Shown: in pieces, positions 2,505 to 64,000 of the stretch
Position numbering within the stretch: the first letter of the stretch is position 1
Layout of the letters: every line of letters starts with the position of its first letter
NCBI GenBank assembly: GCA_020137815.1
Contig: CM035359.1
Coordinates: 1,178,001 to 1,242,000, forward strand
Direction: 5' to 3'
DNA: 64,000 nucleotides
Origin: Hormiphora californensis
Lineage: Eukaryota; Animalia; Ctenophora
Program-made: the position numbers and the translations under genes
The notes under the pieces: model-generated
Database searches by the model: none
What the model saw: only the letters and a program-made list of their open reading frames with translations
Told to the model about the DNA's origin: nothing

Positions 2505-4126
2505 TTTGGAGACACTTAGCACACTGATTTGAGAGAGAGAGAGGGCACCCTACAGGAGTCAAATGTTAATTATTCTGGTCAATTAGGCCCAATTGTGCTC
2601 AATTAGAGCACTTTTTCCACAAATAAGAGCTTTTAAAAGATACTCATGCCCTGTTCAAGTGAATCAGGGTATCAAAATCAGTGGGTGAGTGTCTCCAAAT
2701 GAACTTATAGAGATTACAGGGAAAAGTGGTAATTATTTTGGTCAATTGGACCCAATTAGAGCACTTTCTCGATCTCTGAGAGCCTAGAAAAATCCAGTAA
2801 ACAGGGGGTTATCCAAGTCCGGGGTTTGTGCCCTCATACACTTCATACGTTTTCAGGGGAAGTTGTAATTTCGTCAATTAACCCCATTAAAACCTTAGAA
2901 TCACTTTAAAACCCCCTGGGTCTTTTAAAAGTGCTCATGGGGTTTAGGCCTTTAAATTCGGTTTTTATTTTTTGCTTTATATCAATTTTTCAAATTTTTC
3001 TTTTTTATCACCTGCCCTTTCCCCCAGTTCTGTGAAGCAGAAAGGGGGGAAGGTCCCCCCCCCCTTTTTTGGTACTTGCCCCCACCTGAATTATAAATTT
3101 AAAAAAGGGGAGGGAAGAGATCATTTTTTTTACTTTTTAAAAATCCAATTTTTTAAAAACCCGTCATGTGATCAGATCACGTGTACTTTGGAAAACCCCG
3201 AAAATTCCCCCGGCGAAAAAAACCGCTTTTTTACTTATGTGGCATAGGCTCCCAGACGGTTGGGGCCCGGAACCCCAACGACCCGGGGGAAACGGGAGAA
3301 AATGCGATTTTGGATGACTCTGAGACGTTTTTTTTTGAGTTTCTATCTCAATTTTAGTGATGGCGGATAAAACCGTACCCCCCCCCCAAAAATGAAATAC
3401 CTAGAATAAGTTCCCCCGCGGGTTTAGATCACTGCAAACTTGGATCAAAACCCTTTTCCCCCCCCGGGTTTTTTTACAAGCATGGTGAAACCTTGTTAAT
3501 CCCACCCACAAAAAAAATTTGGGGAACTCCATCATTTGCACCCCGTGTGCCCTTTTGCAACCCACCCAAATTTCTTCTTTTGGGCCAAAAGGTTTCTTCT
3601 TTGGCGCCCCATTAGAACCTTTGGGGGGCAAAGAAACCCCTTTTTCCCCCCGAAAAGGGTTGCGCCCCTTCTTAAAAGGGAGAAAATCAAATTCCCCTGT
3701 GGGGGGTTGGGGGGTAAGGGGGCAAAGACAAAACCCCAAATTGCCCCCCAAATTTTTAAAAAAAGAATTTTTTTTCAAGAAAGGAGGGAAATTTTTTTTT
3801 AAATACCGAATTGTGGGAAAAACAAAATCCCTTTTTTAAAAATGTTTAACCCAAAACCCCGGGAAAAATGGTGTGGGGGGAAGGGGAAAAAATTAGAAAA
3901 TTAAGGGGGGCAAACCCTGATAAGGTCATACCTAAAAATAAAAAAATCCCCTTAAACTGACTTTATCTAACTAAAAACACCCCACCTTCTCCAAAAAAAT
4001 TAAAAAACTTTTGGTCTTTCTTCCTTTCCCTTCTCCTTCTGGCGGCCCAATCATTTCCCCCCCCTATAATACTCATTGTACTCACCGTTTATCCTCATCA
4101 CCCCCTATAATACTCATTGTACTCAC

Positions 4127-7100
4127 CGTTTATCCTCATCAGAGCCCATGACAGAACTATCATCAGCGGTCACAACCCTCGAACCAGCCGACCTTCCCCC
4201 AGTCTGACTCCGTGACACCCATCTCTTCTCCTCATCCGAGCCAACGACAGAACTCTCTTCCCCAGTCATACTGCTGTCCGCCTCGCTTGTCATGATACTG
4301 CTGGCATCACTACAGATCGAGCTGGCATCTGAGTCAATGCCACCGGAGTGCTTCCCTGGGTATCTGGGGAGAAGTTAATTGGTTATTTAATTGGTTATAG
4401 TTGGTTGTAATTGGAACGAATTCAAGAAGTCTATGTATAGCAGATTCAAGATCTGTTAGTTAACTCACTTCTTGTGGGTTCCGTTAGCAACTCCTCCGCT
4501 AGACGGGACAGCTGCTGATGGGGGTGCTGAAATTATTTGGGGTTGTTATACGTTGATATTAGTCGGTATTCCAAATGGATACACCTTTGATTTCATATCT
4601 TAATGGCAATTAAAATAACCTACAATGCATACATTGCATAGCCTCTAGTGCAATTAAATGTATCACTATCAAGTGTTCAGTAACACGCTTGAACGAACGT
4701 GTGTGTGTAGCTTGACATGCAAGGTGTGAAGACAGCTGCTGCAGCACACACACCCTACACACACTGAGCTCAATAACCCTAACTTGATTCTCTCTCTAGC
4801 GATAATATTGAATTTAGGGTAGTTTCAGCAGTAGTAGTATCAGCGGTATCAGTAGTTAGATACGTATCTAAACTAGTATCGATGCTACTACCTATTAGGT
4901 ACACATTACACAAGATCTACACAGCTATGGGCGGGATTATTTGACAATTAGTGGTTTATCCATGCAATTAGATAGAACACAACTCCCCTAATTGGGGGTT
5001 CTTAATTGGTTGGGAATTATAAGTATGTACTACTACATTTCAAATTAGCACCACCGAGAGTCTAGAAGATTACTTAAAATTACATCCCTTGATATTGTAT
5101 CATTCCCCTGATATTGTATCATTGTATTGCCCTAATTACATGTACATTATAACATAGCCAAAACGGCCAGATGGGAAAAGTCCAAATTATCCTTTTCTAA
5201 AGTGTGTGTGTAACTCACGTTGGTAGGTCGGATCAGGTGCAACCCAGGCTACAACACGTCCATTGTAGTACGGTAATTTTGCGGTGGTATCCTTTATCTC
5301 TTGTTTCACGATGATATCATCATCAACCGTCTTAAAATAGTACCTGGAATTATGACGTCATTGTTATTAAAATAGTACCTGGAATTATGACGTCATTGTT
5401 ATTAAATTAGTACCTGGAATTATGACGTCATTGTCATTAAAATAGTACCTGGAATTATGACGTCATTGTTATTAAAATAGTATCTGGAATTATGACATCA
5501 TTGTCATTAAAATAGTACCTGGAATTATGACGTCATTGTTATTAAAATAGTACCTGGAATTATGACGTCATTGTTATTAAAATAGTACCTGGAATTATGA
5601 CGTCATTGTTATTAAAATAGTACCTGGAATTATGACGTCATTGTTATTAAATTAGCACCTGGAATTATGACGTCATTGTTATTAAAATAGTACCTGGAAT
5701 TATGACGTCATTGTTATTAAAATAGTACCTGGAATTATGACGTCATTGTTATTAAAATAGTACCTGGAATTATGACGTCATTGTTATTGAAATAGTACCT
5801 GGAATTATGACGTCATCCCATTATGTATTTTTACCGTTCTCTAATCTATGATAAACATACACTACGAGGCAGGTCGGTAGAACTTCGACAGAATTTAGGG
5901 TAGGTTAATTTAGGGTAGGTCTGAATTTAGGGTAGGTCTGAATTTAGGGTAGGTGAATTTAGGGTAGGTCTGAATTTAGGGTAGGTCTGTAACGTATCGT
6001 TTATCAAAGCATTGCAATTCGACATTAGGTTCTGATTAGGTCGCTGAACCGTGTCCCGTATCTCGTATCAACTCATTTCGATTCGATCTTAGTCACCGAT
6101 TAGGTCGCTGAACCACGTCCCGTATCTCGTATCAACTCATTGAAATTCGAGGTTAGACACAAATTAGGTCCCTGAACCGCGTCCCGTATCTCCTATCAAC
6201 TCATTGCAATTCGATCTTAGTCACCGATTAGGTCGCTAAACCGCGTCCCGTATCTCGTATCAACTCATTGGAATTCGAGGTTAGACACAAATGAGGTGGC
6301 AAACGAATTTTTTTTCAGGTTTCAACTCAGGATGGAACTCTTAAAGTCTACGTGCATAAACTAATAAGTGAGCAGTCAAACAGTTCTAATTTCATTTGAT
6401 GCAATACAGAACACAGTCTACCGACCTATCACCTAACTCAGTTCACCTACTTTAAGTAGTACTTAGTCTCGGTGACTAAGATGGAATTGCAATGAGTTGA
6501 TACGAGATACGGGACGCGGTTCAGGGACCTAATTTGTGTCTAACCTCGAATTTCAATGAGTTGATACGAGATACGGGACGTGGTTCAGCGACCTAATCGG
6601 TAACTAAGATCGAATTGAAATGAGTTGATACGAGATACGTGTCGCGGTTCAGCGACCTAATCAGGATCTAATGTCGAATTGTAATGCTTTGATAAATGAT
6701 ACGTTACGGACCTACCCTAAATTCAGACCTACCCTAAATTCAGACCTACCCTAAATTCACCTACCCTAAATTCAGACCTACCCTAAATTGACCTACCCTA
6801 AATTCTGTCGAAGTTCTACCGACCTGCCCACTACGAAGACAAAAAGCAACTAAACATAAACTAAGGTGTATGATTGTGCTAAATACCTGTAGCCCTCCGT
6901 CTTGCTTATTTCACGGGTAAAGTCGCCAAGGGTTATCTCTGAAAATGGAGAGGTTTTAACAAACAACACAAAACAATACCAAAACAATACCAAAACATGC
7001 GCCATACAGTTCCAAGATATTGAATAACCATATGGAAAAACAAAGGTGCAGTAGTAAACTAACTGTCAGTACTCACAAACAAACAAATTACTAACCGTCA

Positions 7101-8317
7101 GTACTCACAAACAAACAAATTACTAACCGTCAGTACTCACAAACAAATTACTAACCGTCAGTACTCACAAACAAACAAATTACTAACCGTCAGTACTCAC
7201 AAACAAACAAATTACTAACTGTCAGTACTCACAAACAAACAAATTACTAACCGTCAGTACTCACAAACAAACAAATTACTAACTATCAGTACTCACAAAC
7301 AAACAAATTACTAACTGTCAGTACTCACAAACAAACAAATTACTAACTGTCAGTACTCACAAACAAACAAATTACTAACCGTCAGTACTCACAAACAAAC
7401 AAATTACTAACCGTCAGTACTCACAAACAAACAAATTACTAACCGTCAGTACTCACAAACAAATTACTAACCGTCAGTACTCACAAACAAACAAATTACT
7501 AACCGTCAGTACTCACAAACAAACAAATTACTAACTGTCAGTACTCACAAACAAACAAATTACTAACCGTCAGTACTCACAAACAAACAAATTACTAACT
7601 ATCAGTACTCACAAACAAACAAATTACTAACTGTCAGTACTCACAAACAAACAAATTACTAACTGTCAGTACTCACAAACAAACAAATTACTAACCGTCA
7701 GTACTCACAAACAAACAAATTACTAACCGTCAGTACTCACAAACAAATTACTAACCGTCAGTACTCACAAACAAACAAATTACTAACCGTCAGTACTCAC
7801 AAACAAACAAATTACTAACTGTCAGTACTCACAAACAAACAAATTACTAACCGTCAGTACTCACAAACAAACAAATTACTAACTATCAGTACTCACAAAC
7901 AAACAAATTACTAACTGTCAGTACTCACAAACAAACAAATTACTAACTGTCAGTACTCACAAACAAACAAATTACTAACCGTCAGTACTCACAAACAAAC
8001 AAATTACTAACCGTCAGTACTCACAAACAAACAAATTACTAACCGTCAGTACTCACAAACAAACAAATTACTAACTGTCAGTACTCACAAACAAACAAAT
8101 TACTAACTGTCAGTACTCACAAACAAACAAATTACTAACCGTCAGTACTCACAAACAAACAAATTACTAACCGTCAGCACTCACAAACAAACAAATTACT
8201 AACCGTCAGTACTCACAAACAAACCAATTACTAACCGTCGGGGCTGATAGGCACGCAAACCAGATAGGGCGTATCCTCGGCACCAACGTGATATACAACC
8301 TTAGTCCCCTCACTCAT
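4127..8317 (-). CDS. DVL: Dishevelled, 5' coding exons 8317-8236, 6938-6887, 5343-5219, 4526-4469, 4363-4127; gene continues toward and past position 1
   Basis: Spliced in-phase translation MSEGTKVVYHVGAEDTPYLVCVPISPDE ITLGDFTREISKTEGYR YYFKTVDDDIIVKQEIKDTTAKLPYYNGRVVAWV matches the N-terminal Dvl DIX domain. It is followed by Ser-rich DASSIMTSEADSS. All junctions are GT-AG. PDZ and DEP exons are not visible. Confidence 0.88.
5332..5816. repeat. 35-bp tandem array (14 copies) of the Dvl exon-3 splice acceptor
   Basis: Unit TTAAAATAGTACCTGGAATTATGACGTCATTGTTA. The minus strand reads ...ATAATTCCAG|GTACTATTTTAA, and the last copy is the real acceptor at 5343. Confidence 0.95.
5868..6828. mobile_element. 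Foldback non-autonomous transposon with GGCAGGTCGGTAGAACTTCG termini and 8-bp TSD (Merlin-like)
   Basis: TSD CACTACGA at 5860-5867 and 6829-6836. Long TIRs carry 17-bp GAATTTAGGGTAGGTCT sub-repeats and ~61-bp internal repeats. Confidence 0.88.
7058..8240. repeat. 32-bp tandem array (~37 copies) of the Dvl exon-1 splice donor
   Basis: Unit ACTAACCGTCAGTACTCACAAACAAACAAATT. The minus strand carries GACG|GTTAGT, identical to the real donor at 8236/8235, plus GTGAGT. Confidence 0.95.
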
Positions 8318-11609: not shown

Positions 11610-27546
<15,937 letters not shown>

Positions 27547-28340: not shown

Positions 28341-41229
<12,889 letters not shown>

Positions 41230-44954: not shown

Positions 44955-47400
44955 ATACTTACTTTTTGATACTTTTGAGTTGTTCGTCATGATACGTCAG
45001 GTCATCCCAGGAACTCGGACCACCGTTTATTGAAACTGGCTCCAACACACCAGTCAGACAAAGAGTTTCTGTTTGGTGCTTGATATCCAGGTGTAGGGGG
45101 ACGGTCTGGGATATCACGGAGAAGGAGGTCCAGCTTATTTTTAAATAAATCGGGGTCCTCGATCTCCCTCAGATCATCCGGGAGACAGTTCCACAGTCTA
45201 GGACCAATGGAACCGAAGGAAGAGCTATACAGTGTGCAAGTTCTTTTGCTCTTCACCCTTGACAGGTCAGGTATCTCTGCTTTGACACCGTGGCGGGAGG
45301 TACGGTTGAAGCTAATATCGGTTTCATTCGGTATCAGCCCAAGATACTTCCAGGTCCTTACACACTTTAATGATATCATCATCGTGGAGTTCAATACCCT
45401 CGTCCAACCATGAAAGTTCAGGCTTATCGAAGGTTGGCTCCTCGGTCTCAGGGTGTTCGGGTCACTGAAAAACCCTACAGAATTCACTTTGAAAAGCGTC
45501 TGCGATCTCTTTGGGATCAGTTGCCATCGAACCCATCCTCCTTAGTGATTAGAGGAATGGTCGACTTTCCCTTTGCAAAAGATTTTGCAAAAGAGTAGAA
45601 GTACCGCCGGGTTCCGACTTCATCTGTCAGTATTGCCCGTCGCTCAGCGGTCATCTTTCCTAGCTAGTACCAGGTCTTTGGATCTCTAGGCAGACCTGAG
45701 AGAGATGCTCCTCTACTTCTTCTGCTGCTGCTACTTGGTCCTTACTTTTCAGGGCCTCTATACGTGCTCGGAGTTTGGTCTTCGTTCTCCGTAGCTTTTT
45801 GTAACAGTTCGGTTTCCCTTTAGGAGCTTTAACTTCCGGGAAAACCTCCTGGCAAGCAGAAAGAACTTCATGGGTGAAAGCAGCTGGAAAGCTCTGGAAA
45901 TCACTCTCGCTGTGTAGCTTTTCCCAGTTGGACTCAGCTAGTCTTTCTCGCAGAAGTTCGTAGTCCCCATTGTGCCAGTCTAGAGCTCTGAATCCTTCCA
46001 GTTTAGCTCGATGTCTCTGTTGTGGGCGGGTTGGGTGGAAAGTAAGACCCACTTGCACTAGTTCATGGTCCGACATCTCCGTGCTTACTACCTGAACTTT
46101 GCCCACCAGAGATACCTTGTTCACAAAGAACAAGTCCAGGATGTTTTGGCCTCTAGTTGGAGAGTCAACAACCTGTTGCAGAAAATACTTCTCCGATAAC
46201 TCAAGGAGATGTCGAGCTGACCGGGTGTTTTCTGCTGTCCTGCCTCCAATAGACAGGTGATCCCAATCAATTGTCGGAAAGTTGAAGTCTCCCATTAGGA
46301 AGAACTCCGTATCCGGATCCTTATCTAGGTTAGAACCCAAGAACTGGAGGACTCCGGAGAAACTGTCGTAGGGGGCATCAGGGGGTCGGTAGACTACAGC
46401 AATGCTCATGGAACAAGATGGGAGACGGCAGAAAACCGCCTCACATGTGCCATCGTCGTAGCTAGCTGACCATTTAATCGGAACACCTTCATCTACATAA
46501 AGAAGAGCACCTCCTCCCTGTCTACCTACCCTATCAGCTCGAATACACTGGTAGCCCGGCAGCTGGATTTGTGCATCAAGGTGAAAGTCCCTCAACCACG
46601 ACTCAGTGATACCTATAAAAAGGTCCACGAAGACTTGCCTATCCTCCCTAAGTGAGATAATCTCGTGGTTAGTAGAAATCTTTTCTTCCACTCGTATGCT
46701 GTGCGCCGCCGTATTGAAACCCCCAGCATTTAACCCAGGCAGGCTTACTCACTGAACTGAATCTGGCAATCTGGTGCTTTGTGTAGCCACATGTCGGCTT
46801 TAACGGAGGACCCTGTAGCCCTGCACCTGAAACCTGTTCAACTGACTTCTCCATGAGTCCATTCTCTCTCCACATCATGCCGTAGTTATAATCTCCGTTC
46901 CTCGAAACCGTAGAAAATCCTGGTATCCTGGCGAACTTTCCCGGTCTCCTCTAACGCTTTTTCCCTTCCTGCAGGTAGAGCTGGAGTGTGTGGTGGGGCA
47001 GGTTGGTTTTTTTGGTGCTGGGATCTTTTCTTCGAGTTAGCCAGCTTTTGTTGTGTCGAGCTTTGGACAGCTGCAAGCTCCTTCTCAACCTTGTTGTGTG
47101 AGCTCGACCCAAAAGATGTACAGCTTTTGCATTTAGAATTAAAACAGCATGCTTGCAGTTTGTACAAATTGTGCACTGATTTTGGTTGGAATAAGGGAAC
47201 ACTATTAGCGGTACGCCCTTTTGTGAAGTAACAATTTTCAGGCAAGGTTTGCAACTGTTAGATATCCGATCCTTACAAAGGTCCTAAAGTCTATACACCC
47301 ATACTCGCTTTGTCCCCCCTCGTCCCGTGTTGGCATACCCACTCAAGAATGCTTTCCACCACCTGCGGCTCTTTGATCCTGATGTCCTCCTCCTCCAACT
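44955..47400 (-). mobile_element. Internally deleted CR1-group LINE: ORF1 remnant, APE endonuclease (45660-46691) and ORF2 C-terminus (45002-45400); RT core missing
   Basis: GITESWL, GGGALLY, VYRPP, MGDFNFP, PTRGQNILDL, SDH; C-terminal GPRLWNCLP...FKNKLD...IPDRP; AAGT-type tail. Confidence 0.85.
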
Positions 47401-49749: not shown

Positions 49750-50247
49750 ATGTTTTTCGTTTTGTTTCTGTTTCTTGCATGTTGTGCAGGAGAGCAACAA
49801 AAGTTGGAATTCAAGTCCGGAGAGATGTCAGCAGTGCATGCTAGTGGAATAGCTGGGCGCGCCTTTGATGGAGATCTGACAACTAGTGCCCACTCGGCAT
49901 GCAACACGGCAGGAGAAGAAATATGGATGATACTAACTCTCAGCAAACTTGGAGATGTCACTAAACTGACCGTTTGGCCAACTCACTTGGAAGGATCCAA
50001 TAAGTGGAGGTTTAGTGGTACCAAAGTCTACGTACGAGTTGAAGAAGGAGAAGAACGGTATTGTGGTGTTGTCAGAATGCCTTCTACATCTGGTCAGGCC
50101 AGTTCTGATATTTTTTGTGAATCTCCTGGAATCACTGGGATCACTGGAAACGAGGTGGTGTTCCGGCTGCAAAAGAACGCTGGACAAGATGCGTGTATTC
50201 ATCTGTTTGAAGTGGAAGCTTACAGTTTTAAAATAAGTGAGTACTAA
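49750..50247 (+). CDS. Secreted single-domain protein with an F-type-lectin/discoidin (galactose-binding-like) fold
   Basis: Hydrophobic signal peptide, then AGRAFDG...AHS, W-x-x-L, YCG, IFCE, G-x-x-V and LFEVEAY pattern. AATAAA follows at ~50298. Confidence 0.75.
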   Translation: MFFVLFLFLACCAGEQQKLEFKSGEMSAVHASGIAGRAFDGDLTTSAHSACNTAGEEIWMILTLSKLGDVTKLTVWPTHLEGSNKWRFSGTKVYVRVEEGEERYCGVVRMPSTSGQASSDIFCESPGITGITGNEVVFRLQKNAGQDACIHLFEVEAYSFKISEY

Positions 50248-50390
50248 AGTGTGAAAACTAGAGAACACACTTTTTAAAACTGTCTGCATTTATAATCAAT
50301 AAACCCGGGCCGCCCTCTAGGGTGATTCGCTACACTACATACTGCCCGACCTGCGAAGCTGGGAGGGTGGTATATAGTCAGATATATATA

Positions 50391-53300
50391 ACGGGTGGCA
50401 ACTAAAAATTGTCACAAATTTAAAACGGCTGTAGAATTTTTCCCTTTTGAGATACAGCTTCGGGCCAGTGATAGAACGATTTTTTAGACAATTTTAAATA
50501 GGAACAATATGTAATCAAGGAATAAAATGCTCATTTTCATTGCGATAAGGCGCACGCATCATATCCTCTGATGACCCCACCCCACCAAGCAACGTAGTAC
50601 GGAGTTCTACACGGATTCTATTGATCAATAAACGACCTTGGGGGCACGGACCGGGAAAAGGAGGGGTGAAGAGAATGAGTGGGGTGGGTGGGATTGCTGG
50701 AGATGGATGAGTGCGGGCTTTGGAGGGTGTGGCGAGCGTGTGATTTTGTTGGGGCGTGAACATAGAGGAGGAAAGTTGGGATGGTTTTATGCTATGAGGT
50801 TGTTTCACGATTAGTCACGTATTTGGTACGGGGGCGAGAGAGTGTGGTGAATATGGGGTGTACCGTGGTTGTTAGTAATTAAGAATAGGGTGTGCAGAGG
50901 TAAGAGGGTGGTAGTCGGGTGATGTGGTGGTGGGTGAGGTGTGGAGCTGAGGGTTGGGTGAGTTAGCTGGTGTCAAGGGTGTGGTAGTGAGAAAGCCGGG
51001 GTGGTTATGGAGGATGGGAGGGGAGCAGGGTAGGTAAGTAGGTGGGGTGAGCTGTGTATGGGGGATGGAGGAAAGTAGATAGGGGAGGGTGAGAATTTGG
51101 TTGATCGTGGTTTAGGTGTTAAGGGCGGTAGTGTTGGATAGGGTTTATGGAGGTGTGGGGGTAGTTTGGGGTGTTGGTGTGCTGAGAGTTGGGGGGGTTG
51201 GTTAGAGTGGTATAAATTTTAGGGCAGTGGGTAGGTGGGTGTGTTAGGGAGGGGGTAGGGTGGGGGAGGGTTGGTTAGGGGAAAGGGGTCGAGTGTTGGG
51301 GGGGGGGCGGCGACCGTGATGTGTAGGGGCCAGTGGGGCTGTGTAGGGGGGGGGTGTTGGGTTGTAGGGGGGGTGGGGTGGGGATATGTGGTTTGGGGGG
51401 TTTGTTAGTGTTGGTGTTGTTTGTGTGTGGGGGGGTTGCTTGGGTGAGGGTTTGTAAGGGGGTGTTTTAGGGTGGGAAAGGAGGTGGGTGTGGGTATTTT
51501 TTGTGGGGTGTGTGGTTGAATTTTTGTGAGGGTATGTTTAGGGTTGTTCAGGGGGGGTTTCGGGTTGGGGGTATGGGATGTGAGGGATGGAGGCGGGGGG
51601 GCGGTGGTCTGTTGTTGGTGGGATGTGGGTGGCGCGATGGGTATTGTTGAGGTTGGTGAGGTCTGTTGCTTGTAGTATGCGGGTTGCAGTGGGGGATGCG
51701 GAGGCGGGTGTCGAATTAAGTGTAATGGTTCGGGGGGTTAGGTTGGGTGATATTTTTGGGTGTGTTGGTGTAGGGGAAGCGGTGGGTTCTGTATTGGTAG
51801 TGGTGGGTTTTCAGGGGGGGGGGGTGGTGGTGGGGTGGGTTGGGAGGGGGATGAGTAGGGGGGGTGAATGAGTTTGAGTGGGGTATGGGGAGGGTGGGAA
51901 CGGAGGGGAGGTAGATGGGGGAGGGTCTGTTTTGCTATTAGGTGGGGGGGGCTGGAGTAGAGGGGGGTGGTATGGAGTGAGTGTTTGGAAGGGGGGGAAG
52001 GGGATTTGTACGGGGGGGGATGTGGGGGGTGTGGGATGGGGTAGATAGTGGGGTGGGAAGGTTGTGTTAAGAGTATCGTGGTTTTTTCGAGGGAGGGAAT
52101 GAGATTGTATTATTGGTGGAGGGGTATGTATGTAGTGGTGGCAGGTTGGAGAGTAGGTGGAGGGGTTAGGAAAAGGAGGAGGTAGGTGGTTGGGGTTTGC
52201 GTATATAATTGGGGGGGTTGAGTTGTGGTTGCGTTGGTAGGTGTCCGGGTGCGGTGGGGTAGGGGCTTGTGACTATACGCTGGGGGCGAGGTCCTCAGGT
52301 GGTTATGGAGGGAGAGACTTAGTGAAGGTGAAGGTGGTGTGCTGGGGTTGAGGGGGAAGAGGTTGGTAATGGGTTGGGGGTGGTGCTAGTTGAATGATAT
52401 TGGGGAGGGGAGTCGGCGGAGGGACGGTGTTTTGTCGGTTGTTCTTTTTGTGTTTTGGGCGTTCTTTATTCATCTGCCTTGTGTTAGGAGTGTATCTCTC
52501 CCCGCCTGATCTTTGTTTTAGTCTTTGCTCCTAAGGTTTTCATCAGTATACAGTTGGTTGCTGGCTATGCGGCGGCATGGACTGATGTTGTGGTTGGGGA
52601 TGCTAGTGAGATATGGATACGGTGTGCGGGAGTAGCACGGAGTGTGGAAGAGGGGGGGTGATGTGAGTTAACGTAGGATGGTTGCTCGGGGGGAAGGTGG
52701 GCGGTGGTTGTAGTTTCTGTAGGGGGATGATGTTCGGTCGAGGTGAGAATCGGAGGGACTGGTGATGATGGAAGTGATTGGAAGGTGGGGGTGTTGGTTG
52801 GGTTTTAGGATTGGTGTGCTGGAGGAGGATGGGTGAGAGAGAGTTGGGGGTTTAGAGGGGGGTAACGAATGATTGAGGGGGGAGTATGTCGATTTTTGGG
52901 TGAGGTCTTGGTATGGGGTGTTGAAGGTAAATGGTTTTTTGTGATGGGGATTTTCAGTATATGAGGTGTGAAGATGGAAGTGGTGGGTTTTGTTGTTTGG
53001 GGGACGTGGGGGCGGGGTGGGGGGAGCGGGAACGGGGGAAGGGAGTTTTTATTTGGGATGATTTGAGGGGGTGGATAGTGTTGAGGCGTTGGGTTTATGG
53101 AAATGTGATGGGGTTATGAGGGAGGGGGTTGGTCAGTAATGCGTGAGGAGTGATATGTGGGGGTGGCTTACCAGGGTCGGGGGGGAGGTGTTTGGGAGCA
53201 CGAGCTGTCTTGAAGTAAGTGGGGAGATGATTGTGAGGGAGAGAGTTAGGGAATGTGTAGTTATTTTGTTGGGGGGGAATGTTGAGTTGGAAAGGGGTTA

Positions 53301-54576
53301 GTGTTTGGGTTGTGGAGGGGGATGAGTGATTAGATGGGGTGGGCAGGCGGGTGAGGGGGGGGGAGGGTGGGGAATAGTTTCTGGGGAGGTGTGAAGAGAT
53401 GTGTGGATTGGGGAGAATTGGGGGAAGGATTGGCGTTGTTCTGGTGTGTTGTGGGGAGTTGGTGTAATTTAGAGGAGTGTGACAGTTGGTAGTGGGGATG
53501 GGTTAGGGATGAAGTGGGAGGTGGGCGGGAAGGGTCGGGGGCAGCATGAAAACAGTATTTGTTAGAGTGGGGGGGGGGGAGGTTGTGAGGGCATGGGTGG
53601 TTGTGGATGGCTGAAAAGGAGTGGTTACGATTGTTGGGGTGAGTTAGGATGGAGGTGTGTGTGGAATGGAAAGGGGGGGTGGGGGGATGCGTCGGGTGTA
53701 TTGGTGTTGTTTGGGTGAGGAGGGTTGTGTGTGTACTGGGGGTGTGTGGTAGTGTGCGGATGGGGGGTGGTTGGTGGGGGGGGCCAGGTGTGTTTTGGGT
53801 GGAGGTGGCAGTTGGGTGGCTGTTGTGGGTATGGGGGGAGGGAGTGTGGGTAATGGAGGAAGGCGAGGAGGTGGGTAGAGTGTCTGGCTGGGGAAGGGTG
53901 GATTTAGGGCAGTGGGGGGTGGAGTTGTTAAGTAGTTAGGGTTGTGGGGGGTGGGGAGGTGGAGTGGATGTATGTTGTTGTGTGTTGACATAACCAGACC
54001 CACCAAGCACGTAGTACGGAGATTCGAAAGTTCTATGTGATCAGAAACGACCTTCCCGATGAGATAAAATTCTCAAAATTGGAAGTTTGATTGTTTATGT
54101 CATAACCAACATAACTGCCAAGTTTGAAAATTTTAGCTCATCAGGAAGTTGGTTTTACACGTCATAAATGTTTTGAGAGATCGTCGAAATGGCGATTTCT
54201 CAAATTACCTGTAAACTACGCTTTGGAGGGTTTGTTACAGAAGATTCTCACCAGGAAATTGAGTTTGAAATAAAGTTAATTTAGCTCCAAATTGTCTGAA
54301 AAATCATTTTATCACTGTCCCGAAGCTTTATCTCAAACAGAACAGGCGCTAGAGGTGCTAGAAAAGTGTGTAGATTTCATGTACTACGTGCTTTGGTGGG
54401 TCAAGAGGAAATGATGCAATATCGCAATGAAAATGAGCTTTTTATTTCTTGAAAACACATCATTCCTATTCAAAATTGCCTGAAAAATCATTCTATCACT
54501 GGCCCGAAGCTGTATCTCAAAAGGGAAAAATTCTACAGCCGTTTTAAATTTGTGACAATTTTTAGTTGCCACCCGT
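50391..54576. mobile_element. TA-flanked TIR element (Tc1/mariner-type MITE) whose interior is inflated by junk sequence
   Basis: More than 100 bp of TIR (ACGGGTGGCAACTAAAAATTGTCAC...) with TA at both flanks. It is absent from the duplicate copy near 48510-48560. Confidence 0.8.
50640..53990. other. G/T-rich, C-depleted aperiodic tract; probable basecalling artefact
   Basis: No periodic unit. It is flanked by a re-read direct repeat (CCCACCAAGCA.CGTAGTACGGAG...AAACGACCTT at ~50581-50639 and ~53999-54053). Confidence 0.75.
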
Positions 54577-58115: not shown

Positions 58116-60309
58116 ATGATCCCACGACATGATAGTGTTAGTCTGGGTCTGATACGGTTGGCAACGTTTCAAGACATTTCAGCCCTAATCGAGGCAGGGA
58201 AATTAGAGGAGTTGGAAAGTCTTCTAAATCTCCACGGATCACGAGTCCAGATAGAGCCAAGATTTGGTTGCTCAGAGCTTCACTATTCCAGGTTTAATCT
58301 AGCCAACGTGCTGGATGAGAGTGGTATTGGGGACACACCCCTGATAGTTGCAGCACGATCCAGCCCCGAGGCAGTGACCCTGATCTTGGAATATGGTGGG
58401 AACCCAAACCATACTAACCAGGACGGGGAGAGCCCAAGGGGATATGTCCTCAATTGACACCCTGCTGAATGCTGGAGCCAACTTAGCAGCAGCTGTTATC
58501 AAACTCACATCAGCCCTGCGGGAGGCTGACTACGAAAGCGACGACCTGACATTCAGAATCCAACCCCTCCGGATTCTCTTAACTACTAAATCCTATCTGC
58601 AATGCCGGGACCCCATCAGTTCGGCAGTTGATGTTAGGAAAAGCATCTTAGATGTGGTCGATGTCAAAATAGAGTTTAAGAAAGAGTTACAGACTTTAGC
58701 AGCGGACGCAGACAAGTTTACCTATCAGTTCTTGGATTGTTGCGATCTAATGAGCGAGGCAAAGATAATATTCTTGGGGGAAAAGGGCCAGCATGTAATG
58801 AAACTTTCCATGGACAGCGGGAACAAGATGTTTATATCGCATCCCTTTACTCAGCGGCTAATTCGAGATCAATGGAACATGGATTTGAACAATTCCATAC
58901 CCCGTATTGCAGCAAAGCGGTTCTTTAGTTTCATTCTTCTACCTGTATACCTGGTACTCTTCTGGACAGGCCTCGATAAGAGAGGGTCCGGATCTATTCT
59001 AGAATCCCGGTTTGGAGAGCACATGCGATTTATCATGATCCCTAAAATCTGTTTCATAGCGGACTTTGTCAACTATTGCATCTTTGTCCTGATAGTGCTC
59101 GACCATGATTACTATCCTAACTCGTTTTATGCCATACCGGTGGCTGGCGTCTGTGCTCTGGTTCGGCTGATCCTCGCTGTTGACCAGTGCGTACACCAAA
59201 GATTCTCACGATACTTTGGAAACACATGGAACATTTTTGAAATGTTTATAACTCTTTTGTTCATCTTCGCAGCCCTCTTGTACATCCTTGGAAAAGCAGA
59301 CTCAGAACTTAGAAAAGAGTTGTCTGAAATGGCCAGTTATTTCTTTTCCGTTGCAATTTTTGGTCTGTTTGTTATTTGGTTGAGGTTCATAGAATATACT
59401 TTTGAGAAAGTTGGACCTCTCATTATATCCATCAAGTGCCTCCTGGTGGATATCCTCCGATTTGTAATTTTATTAATGTACACTGTAATGGCCGGGGCTA
59501 GCTTTTCCTTAAAATATGTCGTTACATCCGCAAAGGATATAAAAAGAGAATTCTCTTCGGGTGCCATGAATGCATCAAATAGCACAGAACCAAATAACAA
59601 ACCGTACTGGTTCTTACTTGGATTTATGATAAAGTCGACAGTCGGTGCAAGCGAACTAAGTGTGAGTAGAATGCAAACAGTGCAGTGTTAACCCTCCCCC
59701 CCCCCATGTTAACCCCCCTCCCTCTCCAGGATCTGGATGAGCTGGATATCGATGGAGAGTGGGGAAGCTACACTCGGTTTATGATTCAAGGCATTGTGAT
59801 TGTGTACATGACCATATCTGTGACAATCATGCTAAATATTCTTATTGCCATGCTAAACACTTCTTATGAGAGTATTCAGGAGAATAGTGATTTGGAGTGG
59901 AAATTCTCTCGGGCAGTTCTTCTAGCAGTAAGTGTAAAGGTCAGAGAAGATGTGCAACTGTTATACGATGTACTTGTAGAGCCTGAGAGAGATGTATATA
60001 CCCGTTGTGCCCGCTGGAGGCTGGTGAGTGTTTGATTCAATTCCGATACTGGCACTTAATAGACGCCTGTTTTAATTCCCATTTTCTCAGGACTACCGGC
60101 ACGGACAGCCCTTCATCTTTCCCTGGAACGTCTTCCTCCTGCCCCTGACATGCTGGTTTAGAAGCCAACTAAAATCTCAGCCAACACCAACAAAAGATCT
60201 GGAGGGTATGGAGAGCAGCAGAAAGGCTTTAATAGATAAACTGTGTGAGAGATATGAGAGAAGGAATGCTGACACTAGTAATATCTGCTCGAAATGTAAA
60301 ACTTGTTAA
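58116..60309 (+). CDS. TRPC-like cation channel (ankyrin repeats, 6 TM segments, TRP box). Exons ~58116-59661, 59730-59927, 60091-60309; frameshift near 58440
   Basis: GDTPLIVAA ankyrin, DPI...IEFKKE...KFTYQFLDCC, KMFISHPFTQ, MLNILIAMLNTSYE, TRP box EWKFSR, then FPWNV. The start codon is uncertain. Confidence 0.85.
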
Positions 60310-60903: not shown

Positions 60904-61700
60904 GTACTTACTTACTTGATACTTGGTTCGGTCTCCTCAATCATTCGAGTGGCCGGCTCCAAGTATCCTCGCTCGTAGCGACGTGAGCTGTCTCCATTCA
61001 TTTCTGTTCTCTGCATGCAGTGTTAGTAATAGCACGGAGATACTGGGATTGACCCATAGCGTCTCGATAATCGTTCAGAACACAGGAAGTCCAGGTTTTA
61101 CGCGGTTTTCCTCTGGAACGTCTCCCATGACTAGGCACCCAGTGATAGAGTTTGTTAGGCACCCTACCCTCAGGCATTCTAATCAGGTGTCCAAACCAGC
61201 GGAGTCTCCCATTGCCAATGAACTTCGAGATTTGTTCTATCCCCGCCCTCTCCAGTACCTCCCTGTTAGATACTCTCCTAAACCACTGTATTCTCTGGAT
61301 TCTACGCAGGCACCGTTGGTGGAACGCCTCCACACGGCGATCTCGGACCTGTGTAGTTGTCCATGCCTCACAACCATAGAGAAGCACCGTCAGAACAGCA
61401 GCCCTGTAAATCCTAATCTTGGTACAGGTCCTGATAGTACGGTTGTACCAGATCCTACAGAGCATACTGAATGCACTATATGCCTTCCCTATCCTGATAC
61501 CCAGCTCCTTGTCGATGGTACCATCAGAGGACATAGCCGATCCGAGATAGGTAAAATTGGTCACCTGCTCAGCAGAATTGCCCTCCACAGATATGTTGAC
61601 CGTATCCGCCTCCGAAAAAGGACGCTGGTTAAGACCCTTAAATGCCATAACTTTAGTCTTTTTCGCATTGATCTTCAAACCAGCATACCTGATACCCTGC
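60904..61700 (-). mobile_element. 5'-truncated RTE-clade LINE
   Basis: INAKKTKVM, FTYLGS, KIRIYRAAVLTVLLYGCEAW, RLRWFGHLIRM, GKPRKTW; (AAGT)n tail at ~60905-60917. Confidence 0.9.
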
Positions 61701-61932
61701 GTATTTAGCCAGTAAATCCGTTGACTCCTGGAGCCCTTCCTCTGTTCGGGGTTATAACAATAACAATAACATTTAAAATATTTAAATCGCTTTTGAGCGA
61801 AAAGTGTTTATCTCGATCGACTTATATTAAAGCGTCCTTTCGATCAAAACTCGCTTTCTAAAGCGCATCTTCTTGTGATGTACTTTGAAAAGTCATTTGG
61901 AAAGGTTAAATAGAATGATGTGTTGTGTCATC

Positions 61933-62653
61933 TTACACACACTCTATTAATCCCTTTCTTAGTCTATATTGTTTATCTGAATTTTCACTCCTTAATCTTT
62001 TCAGGGACTCAAGAGTTTTACGTCTCAACTCCCTCTCCTCAAATGTCCTGTCCGGACCAATGTACACATTATGAAAATTATCCGACTGTCTCAGCTCCTT
62101 TGCCTTCTTCAACAAGGTTAACAGATTCTCCCTCGACGACAGGGTGGCAATCATTGGCCGAGTCTTGTTCTCAGCTTTTGCTCCAACACGCTTCACGTCG
62201 GTGAGTTTCATCCTTTCATTCAACTCCTCTAAAATTTTTTCTACAGATAACCTTGATTTCTATATCCATTTTACTAATTGAACCGGTACCCCGGCTTTCT
62301 ACTGCTTTATGGTCCTCTTTAGCAGTGGCGGCTGTATCAGCTGGACCCTTCTCCTCCTCAAGATTGAAGATCATAAGGTTACTGCTCCTGTCAACTTCAT
62401 CTGTGATCGGTGCAACCGATTTCTTGAGCACATTCTGTAACTTAGATGGGGCAGTAGCAGCAGCACAATTAGTCGAAATGACTGTGGAGAACGATTTCAT
62501 TTCTCTCTTGACAGTGTCTGTTACAGCTTTAGCAGCAGAGAGGCCCTCATCCTGAAGATCAATCACTTTTTTCTGCAACTCAATAACCTGCTTCTGACAC
62601 TTTAGCAACTCCTGCTCCAAACTTCGAACAACTTTCGAGTGTTCAATCTCCAT
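61933..62653 (-). mobile_element. Disrupted LINE ORF1 (coiled coil plus RRM/CTD type)
   Basis: DRSSNLMIFNLEE, RVG...RPMIATL, VYIGPDRTFEERELRR. Broken near 62220-62300. Confidence 0.7.
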
Positions 62654-62659
62654 TTCTTC

Positions 62660-64000
62660 TGCCGATTTCGATCTGAACTGTGTCTTGCGGGTCCAGGCCT
62701 GGGTTATTTCCCCAACGCTAAAAAGTCTATCCTCCTAGTTAAACCCCAATTCCTTGCTTCTGCCAAGTCCCTATTCAGTAACACAAACATTCAAATCCTG
62801 ACAGAAGGAACAAGGTATCTAGGCGCACCCCTTGGCTCTGATAGCTTCAGAGATCAGTTTGTCTCTGACCAAGTCAGTGGTTGGTGCCGTCAGCTAGAGG
62901 AGCTTTCATCTGCCTCCGAGACGGAACCCCAAGCGTCATTTTCAGCTTTCTGTGTAGGACTATCGAAAAAGTGGCTGTTCTTGATGCGCACTACGCCCTG
63001 TATATCACACCTCTTTCTCCCTCTGGAGCAAACCATCAGGACTCTCTTCCTTCCCAAAACCATAACTCCTCACTTTAGCGACACCCACAGAAACATTTTC
63101 AGCCTCCCTGCTAGGAATGGAGGTATTGGCATATCTGATCCCACCAAAATCGCGGATGACGAGTATGCTAGATCTGTTGAGGCTACTGCCCCCCTCTCTG
63201 AACTTATAAACGAACAGAATACACACATTACCTCAGAGAGAGCGGACAGAGCCACAGTGGATCTCAGTGTTGCCAAACACAAAGTTCTAACGGCTAAGAG
63301 AGCGAAACAGAAAGCTGAACTTGAAACTGCATCAGCTGAACTAGACCCCCGACAACAACGTCTCCACGAGGAACTGTGCCAACGCGGAGCCTCCACCTGG
63401 GTTACAACCCTCCCGCTCGCTGAACACGGCTTTCTTCTCAACAAAGGGGAGTTTCACGATGCTATGGCTCTACGGTATGATTTCCCAATTGAAGGTATAT
63501 CCCATACCTGCATGTGTGGAAAGCCTAACAGTATGGAGCACTGTCTCTCATGTCCCCTTGGTGGCTACGTTCATCTCCGCCACAATCAAATACGGGACCT
63601 CACTGCGAATCTTCTGTCCGAGGCTGGATGCACAGTCCACAGACGTTACTATTGAACCACATCTCCTTCCCATCACTGGAGAGCATTTCAAATACAAGAG
63701 TGCCAACACCGATGATCAAGCCAGGCTTGACGTGTCTGCTAGGAAGGTTTGGTAACGAAGTTACCCCTCCCTTGCCGGCGCGCGAAGCGCGCCAAACGAA
63801 GGCCGCGAAGCGGCCTGAGTGAGAGTGTGAGGTGTCTTGGATACCAATAGGAAGGTATGGGTTGACATGGACAAAACCTTCCTTGACATCAGAGTGTTTA
63901 ACTCACGTGCCGACTCCAACATCAAAAAGTCATTGAAATCGGCCTTGGCTTCTCACGAGAAAGAGAAAAAGAGGGTGTATAACGAACGAATCCTGGAAGT
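62660..64000 (+). mobile_element. 5'-truncated CRE-like non-LTR retrotransposon (RT thumb, Zn knuckle, restriction-like endonuclease)
   Basis: GYFPNAKKS, RYLGAPLG, LPARNGGIGI, GASTWVTTLP, CMCG...HCLSCPLGG, RHNQIRD, RLDVSAR, FLDIRVFN. There is a frameshift near 63635 and an insertion at 63749. Confidence 0.85.
63749..63847. mobile_element. 99-bp TTGGT-terminus mini-transposon with 9-bp TSD
   Basis: TSD TAGGAAGGT at 63740-63748 and 63848-63856. Removal restores DVSARKVWVDMDKTFLDIRVFN. Confidence 0.87.

What the first reader, a model, noticed from the sequence alone, without database searches (positions are those of the whole stretch)
5332..5816. Fourteen CAG|GT ratchet-like sites ahead of the DIX exon
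Seen: nearly every unit reads TTCCAG|GTACTA on the sense strand, so it is an acceptor that regenerates a donor after splicing. Stopping at any upstream copy adds a multiple of 35 nt and gives a frameshift or stop. Inference: correct Dvl mRNA needs either strict exon definition or recursive splicing through the array, and copy number could tune Dvl dose via NMD.
Basis: inference. Interest (0 to 1): 0.7.

Follow-up and report, generated by a model that had tools for sequence, protein, structure and literature searches.

The report
Polymorphic splice-acceptor minisatellite in ctenophore Dishevelled
In a comb jelly's Dishevelled gene, one allele has copied an intron-exon boundary 13 extra times while another allele in the same sample has a single copy, so this is likely a tolerated repeat of a kind already called a "mirage" in lancelets, not a built-in stepwise-splicing device.

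Summary
The sequence is as described: 14 units of 35 nt, 14 of 14 with CAG, 13 with CAG|GT, 12 with TTCCAG|GTACTA; each of the 13 upstream copies gives a stop at codon 47-69. But the unit is the end of intron 2 plus the first 12 nt of exon 3, so the 'regenerated donor' is exon 3's own start, amplified once; 7 of 24 acceptors in the window are AG|GT. One DNA contig of run X1 bridges exon 2 to exon 3 across a 125-nt intron with one acceptor, no array and no 961-nt foldback insertion, beside contigs of the array allele: the array is dispensable and polymorphic. Four more of 49 splice sites here are duplicated the same way; two of them (CLK, SF3B2) are acceptors without GT, which re-splicing cannot rescue. 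This is an amphioxus-type 'mirage', found by this scan in other animals before, here in a ctenophore. Recursive rescue stays possible (donor scores mid-range) but is untested: no RNA covered the exon 2-3 junction. Dose tuning has no support.

The parts
5332..5816 (-). 35-nt minisatellite, 14 units; unit = last 18 nt of intron 2 + first 12 nt of exon 3 + 5-nt spacer (acceptor-side mirage)
5344..5345 (-). genuine 3' splice site (last copy), followed by exon 3
   Evidence: only join that keeps the DIX frame; matches ctenophore Dvl without insert; not seen in RNA of this species
5799..5800 (-). first decoy AG; keeps the upstream intron flank; diagnostic C in its exon part
5219..5343 (-). Dvl exon 3 (second half of DIX), begins with GT
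   Evidence: Pfam DIX; its donor at 5219 is confirmed by an RNA contig
6887..6938 (-). Dvl exon 2 (52 nt); donor CAG|GTATTT
   Evidence: homology; no RNA cover
8236..8317 (-). Dvl exon 1, coding part
5344..6886 (-). intron 2: 1543 nt in the window's allele, 125 nt in the second allele of run X1
5868..6828 (.). 961-nt foldback insertion with long inverted arms and an 8-bp target-site duplication (5860-5867, 6829-6836); absent from the second allele
7058..8239 (-). 32-nt array, 37 copies, duplicating the intron-1 donor (donor-side mirage)
4469..4526 (-). Dvl exon 4
   Evidence: both joints seen in RNA contig of X7
4127..4363 (-). Dvl exon 5
   Evidence: (9 loose letters)
4060..4141 (-). 41-nt duplication of the exon-5 donor

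Best explanation
The array is a head-to-tail amplification of the intron 2/exon 3 boundary of a ctenophore Dishevelled gene, present on one allele and absent from another, and the cell likely splices straight to the last copy and ignores the rest. Shown: unit anatomy, a single-acceptor allele, other duplicated junctions in the same window. Inferred: a 30-nt junction segment was duplicated with a 5-nt spacer and then expanded by slippage or unequal exchange; the last copy wins because only it is followed by the whole exon and its GTGAGT donor (exon-side definition); rare use of a decoy gives a premature stop and would be cleared by NMD or occasionally re-spliced. The GT is a by-product of an AG|GT junction, not a selected ratchet.
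For: (1) Unit = intron end + exon start. (2) One 245-nt X1 contig (depth 51.8, minus strand in both calls) maps letters 1-64 to 6892-6829 and letters 114-245 to 5361-5230; the two loose ends overlap and account for the 49 letters between: a 125-nt intron, one acceptor, empty insertion site. The same run holds the array/insertion allele (unit contigs; record 1, depth 40.7). (3) A second sample from another study (X3) carries the array with the window's right flank and the insertion; no empty-site contig was listed for it. (4) 5 of 49 hand-annotated splice sites have junction copies in the adjoining intron; the CLK (16342, AG|GC) and SF3B2 (29651, AG|GA) acceptor copies have no GT, and the 37 donor copies of intron 1 need the exon-adjacent site, so exon-side choice must work here without re-splicing if these alleles function. 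(5) 7 of 24 acceptors are AG|GT, two others AG|GTAC. (6) Relative's mRNA lacks the GT at this codon. (7) Amphioxus mirages, including acceptor-side BflGb6, are reported not to disturb splicing (PMC3087553; PMC3902484); the EJC represses regenerated donors in flies (PMC8184009).
Against: No RNA covered the exon 2-3 junction: the X7 contig stops at 5319, X7 and X9 gave nothing on exon 2, a metagenome scan with an exon-2 stretch found 0. So direct splicing on the array allele is not shown. The first copy keeps the upstream intron flank, and the foldback is predicted to pair (6833 with 5863), which would put it about as near the donor as in the ancestral intron; introns here are short (21 measured, 101-3895 nt), where intron definition and first-AG scanning could favour the first copy. 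Duplicated gamma-globin sites were reported to splice at the proximal copy, though another group found the opposite (as cited in PMC1557585). Folding does not expose the true acceptor more than the decoys. That the CLK and SF3B2 alleles function is assumed. Homozygosity of X3 is not proven: contigs show presence, not absence.
Confidence: 0.7

Rival explanations
1. Recursive rescue is the main route on the array allele: exon 2 is joined to an upstream copy (most likely the first, 5799), CAG|GTACTA is regenerated, and a second splice removes the rest of the array as a duplication-made intron.
For: 12 of 13 decoys have GT; the regenerated donor has 6 of 9 U1 matches and beats 10 of 25 authentic donors, several of which are of the CAG|GTAC type. 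First copy keeps its upstream flank; foldback predicted to shorten the effective distance. AGGT duplication can make a working intron, at 6-16% efficiency (PMC3265369); AGGT arrays are used as both sites in human UBC (PMC10809524); recursive splicing occurs in short introns too, mostly as a minor route (PMC10156609).
Against: The second step faces the same choice among the remaining acceptors. 5484 has no GT; 5379 and 5414 would leave 35 and 70 nt, shorter than any of the 21 introns measured (shortest 101). EJC represses regenerated donors in flies (not tested in ctenophores). GT-less acceptor mirages exist in the same window. No intermediate was seen, but none could have been with these contigs.
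Confidence: 0.17
2. The array allele is a leaky, mildly deleterious hypomorph: a sizeable share of its transcripts use a decoy and are destroyed by NMD, tolerated because Dvl output has slack or the other allele compensates.
For: All 13 decoys give early stops; the decoys are near-perfect; in human CBS and 6-16 some repeated donors are used (PMC1557585 introduction).
Against: The allele is in two samples from two studies, and X3 lists no other allele; F7 site choice did not change with repeat number (donor side).
Confidence: 0.1
3. Copy number is a selected rheostat of Dvl dose (via NMD, or via the 13 TGACGTCA palindromes acting as CREB/ATF-type sites).
For: 13 of the window's 15 TGACGTCA octamers lie in the array (the name CRE is recalled). 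Human VNTRs can alter splicing (ABCA7, MIR137; search listing only).
Against: Zero-copy allele; no conservation of the GT in a relative; the octamer is simply part of the copied intron end; the shuffle control does not model tandem amplification; no expression or population data.
Confidence: 0.03
4. Assembly artefact.
For: Sequence below about 4060 looks error-rich; copy number cannot be checked from contigs.
Against: Unit-to-unit contigs, including the variant unit, are present in X1 and unit contigs in X3.
Confidence: 0.01

Closest known systems
Amphioxus 'mirages' (Adh3, globins BflGb6/BflGb9, troponin C, PGBD5); PMC3087553 passages, PMC3902484 passage; the original Adh paper was not held
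   Same: Minisatellite-like tandem copies of an intron/exon boundary; BflGb6 copies an intron 3' end plus exon start, as here; unit size in the 10-72 bp Adh3 range; length differs between haplotypes; several per genome region.
   Different: Host is a ctenophore; a zero-extra-copy allele is documented; copies are AG|GT and sit beside a foldback insertion; correct splicing over the array is not shown here.
Human boundary-spanning VNTRs: F7 IVS7 (37 bp), CBS IVS13, 6-16, lamin B2 (PMC1557585: abstract, passages, Discussion)
   Same: Identical decoy splice sites from a junction-spanning repeat; polymorphic; the exon-adjacent site is used (F7, lamin B2). The intron-1 array here is the direct counterpart.
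   Different: Those repeat donors; this repeats an acceptor, where 5'-to-3' scanning would pick the wrong copy.
Recursive splicing at ratchet points (Drosophila, human); PMC10156609 section 9, PMC8184009 section 9
   Same: AG|GT motif able to regenerate a donor.
   Different: Ratchet points are intronic, single, typically in long introns; here the motif is the real exon start, repeated every 35 nt in a 1.5-kb intron, polymorphic, with no intermediates shown.
Dual-specific AGGT sites in tandem repeats (UBC, VCX3A; PMC10809524) and intron gain by AGGT duplication (PMC3265369)
   Same: Each unit has one AGGT that could serve as acceptor or donor; first GT to last AG removes a whole number of units.
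   Different: Those repeats are exonic or coding; here the array lengthens an existing intron, the unit is not a multiple of 3 and holds stops.

Membership tests
mirage (exon-intron boundary minisatellite) | tandem unit spans a genuine exon-intron boundary of the host gene | tested here: met
   boundary fixed by reading frame and homology
mirage (exon-intron boundary minisatellite) | copies keep the splice signal and lie in the adjoining intron | tested here: met
   13 of 13 extra copies keep CAG
mirage (exon-intron boundary minisatellite) | length varies between haplotypes | tested here: met
   one-copy allele beside the array allele in X1
mirage (exon-intron boundary minisatellite) | normal mRNA is still made | tested here: inconclusive
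   spliced Dvl RNA contig exists (exons 3-4-5) but stops at 5319 and its allele at the array is unknown
mirage (exon-intron boundary minisatellite) | somatic instability | not testable with these tools
   only contigs were available
recursive-splicing ratchet point | AG|GT that regenerates a usable 5' splice site | tested here: met
   by sequence only: mid-range score on a 25-donor matrix
recursive-splicing ratchet point | intermediates or lariats from the site | not testable with these tools
   no RNA over exon 2 or the junction
recursive-splicing ratchet point | conserved site | tested here: not met
   absent from a second allele; no GT at the matching codon in L001 (assumes the same intron position, not checked)
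recursive-splicing ratchet point | subdivides a long intron into removable pieces | tested here: not met
   intron 1543 nt, steps of 35 nt; shortest of 21 introns measured is 101 nt
intron gain by AGGT tandem duplication | new intron at a new position from first GT to last AG | tested here: not met
   the single-copy allele already has an intron at this position
Dishevelled | N-terminal DIX domain, closest to Dvl proteins | tested here: met
   exon 3 is 65-68% identical to Bolinopsis and Mnemiopsis Dvl versus 53-55% to three others tested
Dishevelled | PDZ and DEP domains | tested here: inconclusive
   no tblastn hit in the window; they would lie beyond 4127, in error-rich or absent sequence

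The most novel reading that the evidence does not exclude
On the array allele the first copy is the acceptor actually used, and because exon 3 happens to start with GTACTA the mistake is repaired by a second splice: a self-correcting mirage, i.e. recursive splicing born in one mutational step, segregating in a wild ctenophore population beside the ancestral one-step allele. AG|GT junctions would then tolerate longer acceptor arrays than others (here 13 extra copies against 2-3 at the two GT-less acceptors).
Probability: 0.17. Interest if true: 0.7.

Novelty: new member of a known kind. Interest (0 to 1): 0.3.

Why it matters
As it stands it extends mirages to ctenophores (none found in my searches) and gives a natural matched pair: one acceptor versus fourteen, in one sample, with exonic markers. 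That pair makes an old unsettled question directly testable, namely which of several identical 3' splice sites is chosen and whether AG|GT copies are repaired by re-splicing. If recursive rescue were shown it would be a route to recursive sites and new introns caught as a polymorphism. If not, it is an ordinary tolerated repeat.

Tried and rejected
No whole genome is held, so no genome-wide count. RNA: X7 has one contig over exons 3-5, none on exon 2; X9 laid nothing; lack of cover proves nothing. Exon-2 pattern scan of metagenome contigs: 0. Exon-3 word search: no candidate. RNA structure as the selector: the array folds better than shuffles (z -3.97) through the 10-nt palindrome pairing between units, but the true acceptor is no more open than the decoys (0.38 versus 0.32-0.49): rejected. 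I first read the X3 loose end at 5361 as a second single-copy allele; it is a right-flank contig starting in a unit and proves nothing. Copy number from contig depth was not used (the tool warns against it); weak hints only: the variant unit has depth 162 in X1 against about 35-55 for allele-level contigs, so the array may be longer than 14 there. Enrichment of arrays at junctions: 5 of 49 junctions against 625 of 3000 random positions shows none by position (random points fall inside arrays); a per-array estimate gave 5 of 8 against 0.9 expected, P about 0.0006, but arrays, periods and span were chosen by hand after seeing the data and exonic arrays are removed by selection, so it is a lead only. 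The Atlas search with a TRP-like ORF did not give the taxon. Searches for acceptor-containing VNTR units gave 0 papers.

Full report
Observation. The array is at 5332-5816, period 35, 13.9 copies, 96% matches. On the minus strand all 14 units have TCCAG; 13 are followed by GT, 12 by GTACTA. The last is the genuine acceptor; use of any of the other 13 gives a stop at codon 47, 66 or 69.

Gene. Exons 8317-8236, 6938-6887, 5343-5219, 4526-4469 and 4363-4127 translate to an open frame of 184 residues. Exon 3 is Pfam DIX, E 4e-8; exon 1 DIX weakly, E 0.009. The best phmmer hit of exon 3 led to a full-length mRNA-like contig, L001, whose protein is 99% identical to Bolinopsis microptera Dvl and 81% to a Mnemiopsis leidyi protein. 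Window exons match these two better than the three other Dvl proteins tried, so the window is most likely a ctenophore. Both read GYRYYFKT across the exon 2/3 position with no insert, which fixes 5343 as the coding start. One RNA contig (X7, depth 8.7) shows the 5219/4526 joint and 9 letters of exon 5, but ends at 5319.

What the unit is. Each unit is the last 18 nt of intron 2, the first 12 nt of exon 3 and a 5-nt spacer. The GT is therefore exon 3's first two bases. Of 24 acceptors that I annotated by hand in Dvl, a CLK kinase and SF3B2, 7 are AG|GT, including two unrepeated AG|GTAC junctions (the last SF3B2 exon translated with a break, so one boundary there is uncertain). In L001 the arginine codon is CGC, so that species would have no GT there if its intron is at the same place (not checked).

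A second allele. Run X1 has a 245-nt contig, depth 51.8, seen in both layings: letters 1-64 on 6892-6829 (record 2), letters 114-245 on 5361-5230 (record 8). Its two loose ends overlap by 11 letters and fill the 49 between; they resemble the window's 5817-5859. That gives a 125-nt intron 2 with one acceptor. It also has one copy of an 8-mer that in the window flanks a 961-nt foldback element on both sides (5868-6828). The same run holds the insertion allele (record 1) and unit contigs, including the window's variant unit. X1 may be the source of the window, so it is not independent for the array allele. X3, from another sample and study, has unit contigs, the window's right flank and the insertion end, and no empty-site contig among those listed (37 and 10 records were not shown). 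I laid 2 of the 6 DNA holders. So array and insertion are derived, linked and dispensable.

Context. A junction 18-mer scan found copies in the adjoining intron at 5 of 49 sites: Dvl exon-3 acceptor (13), Dvl exon-1 donor (22 within 3 mismatches; 37 units by TRF), Dvl exon-5 donor (1), CLK acceptor 16342 (2) and SF3B2 acceptor 29651 (3). The last two lack GT and cannot be repaired by re-splicing. I looked at the coiled-coil gene at 41-48 kb by eye only, noticed no such array, and left it out of the count.

Mechanism. Most likely (0.7) the spliceosome takes the exon-adjacent copy directly; this is inferred from the points above and from reports that amphioxus mirages leave splicing intact (PMC3087553, passages; PMC3902484, one passage) and that the EJC represses regenerated donors (PMC8184009, abstract and section 9). 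Against it: the regenerated donor is as good as many real ones here (above 10 of 25 leave-one-out scores on a small matrix); the first copy keeps the upstream flank and the foldback is predicted to pair and shorten the distance; duplicated globin acceptors were reported to use the proximal copy, with an opposite result from another group (PMC1557585, abstract, passages and Discussion; the primary papers not seen); AGGT duplications can be spliced out (PMC3265369, abstract and section 6; PMC10809524, abstract and passages); recursive splicing occurs in short introns, mostly as the minor route (PMC10156609, section 9). Recursion still has dead ends (5484 without GT; 35 and 70 nt remainders) and faces the same choice at its second step. 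I give it 0.17 as main route, a leaky allele 0.10, a selected rheostat 0.03. Folding does not single out the true acceptor.

Known kind. It meets the tested features of a mirage and fails two of a classical ratchet point (conservation, long-intron subdivision). The original Adh paper was not held. No supplements were read; the globin paper's alignments might show AG|GT copies. Searches for mirages (2 papers, both amphioxus) and for ctenophore + intron + tandem repeats + splice site (9 listed, none on this by title or abstract start) found no ctenophore case; the library lacks most subscription journals. Earlier notes of this scan report the same kind in annelids, urchins and abalone, some with RNA using only the last acceptor; these are unchecked and not counted as support. 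None named a ctenophore and none exist for this genome.

Verdict. Real, ordinary in kind, new host, with a useful built-in control allele. Interest 0.3.

Noticed in passing
window 5860-6836: 961-nt non-coding foldback element: terminal 30 nt identical in inverted orientation, arms up to 274 nt at 96%, internal 17-nt and 64-nt tandem repeats, 8-bp target-site duplication, presence/absence polymorphic. GG start, 8-bp TSD and internal repeats recall Merlin-type elements (recalled, not tested). It lies 43 nt from the array and both are missing from the second allele.
   Followed up: partly
window 7058-8239: 37 copies of a 32-nt unit repeat the intron-1 donor; each unit also holds a second GTGAGT. 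Present at high depth in X1 and X3; whether an allele lacks it is unknown.
   Followed up: partly
window 16330-16500 and 29640-29870: Acceptor-side mirages without GT in a CLK-type kinase and in SF3B2.
   Followed up: partly
window 5353-5815: 13 perfect TGACGTCA palindromes in the array; they drive unit-to-unit pairing in RNA and may have seeded the duplication.
   Followed up: partly
window 6881-6889 and 5341-5346: Both ends of intron 2 read CAG|GTA, the proto-splice pattern expected of an intron gained at a duplicated site; age of the intron not examined.
   Followed up: no
window 4372-4374: X3 has 42 inserted letters resembling the short repeat just upstream of the exon-5 acceptor: another length-variable repeat near a splice site.
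   Followed up: no
window about 2600-4060 and 50000-54000: Homopolymer-rich, strongly skewed sequence that looks like low-quality assembly; the rest of Dvl (PDZ, DEP) was not found in the window.
   Followed up: no
window 58384-59688: Long ORF with features of a TRP-type ion channel (Atlas 0.88, lead only).
   Followed up: partly
window 35910-37682, 45663-46748, 60920-63652: ORFs that look like endonuclease/reverse-transcriptase retroelement pieces (by eye).
   Followed up: no
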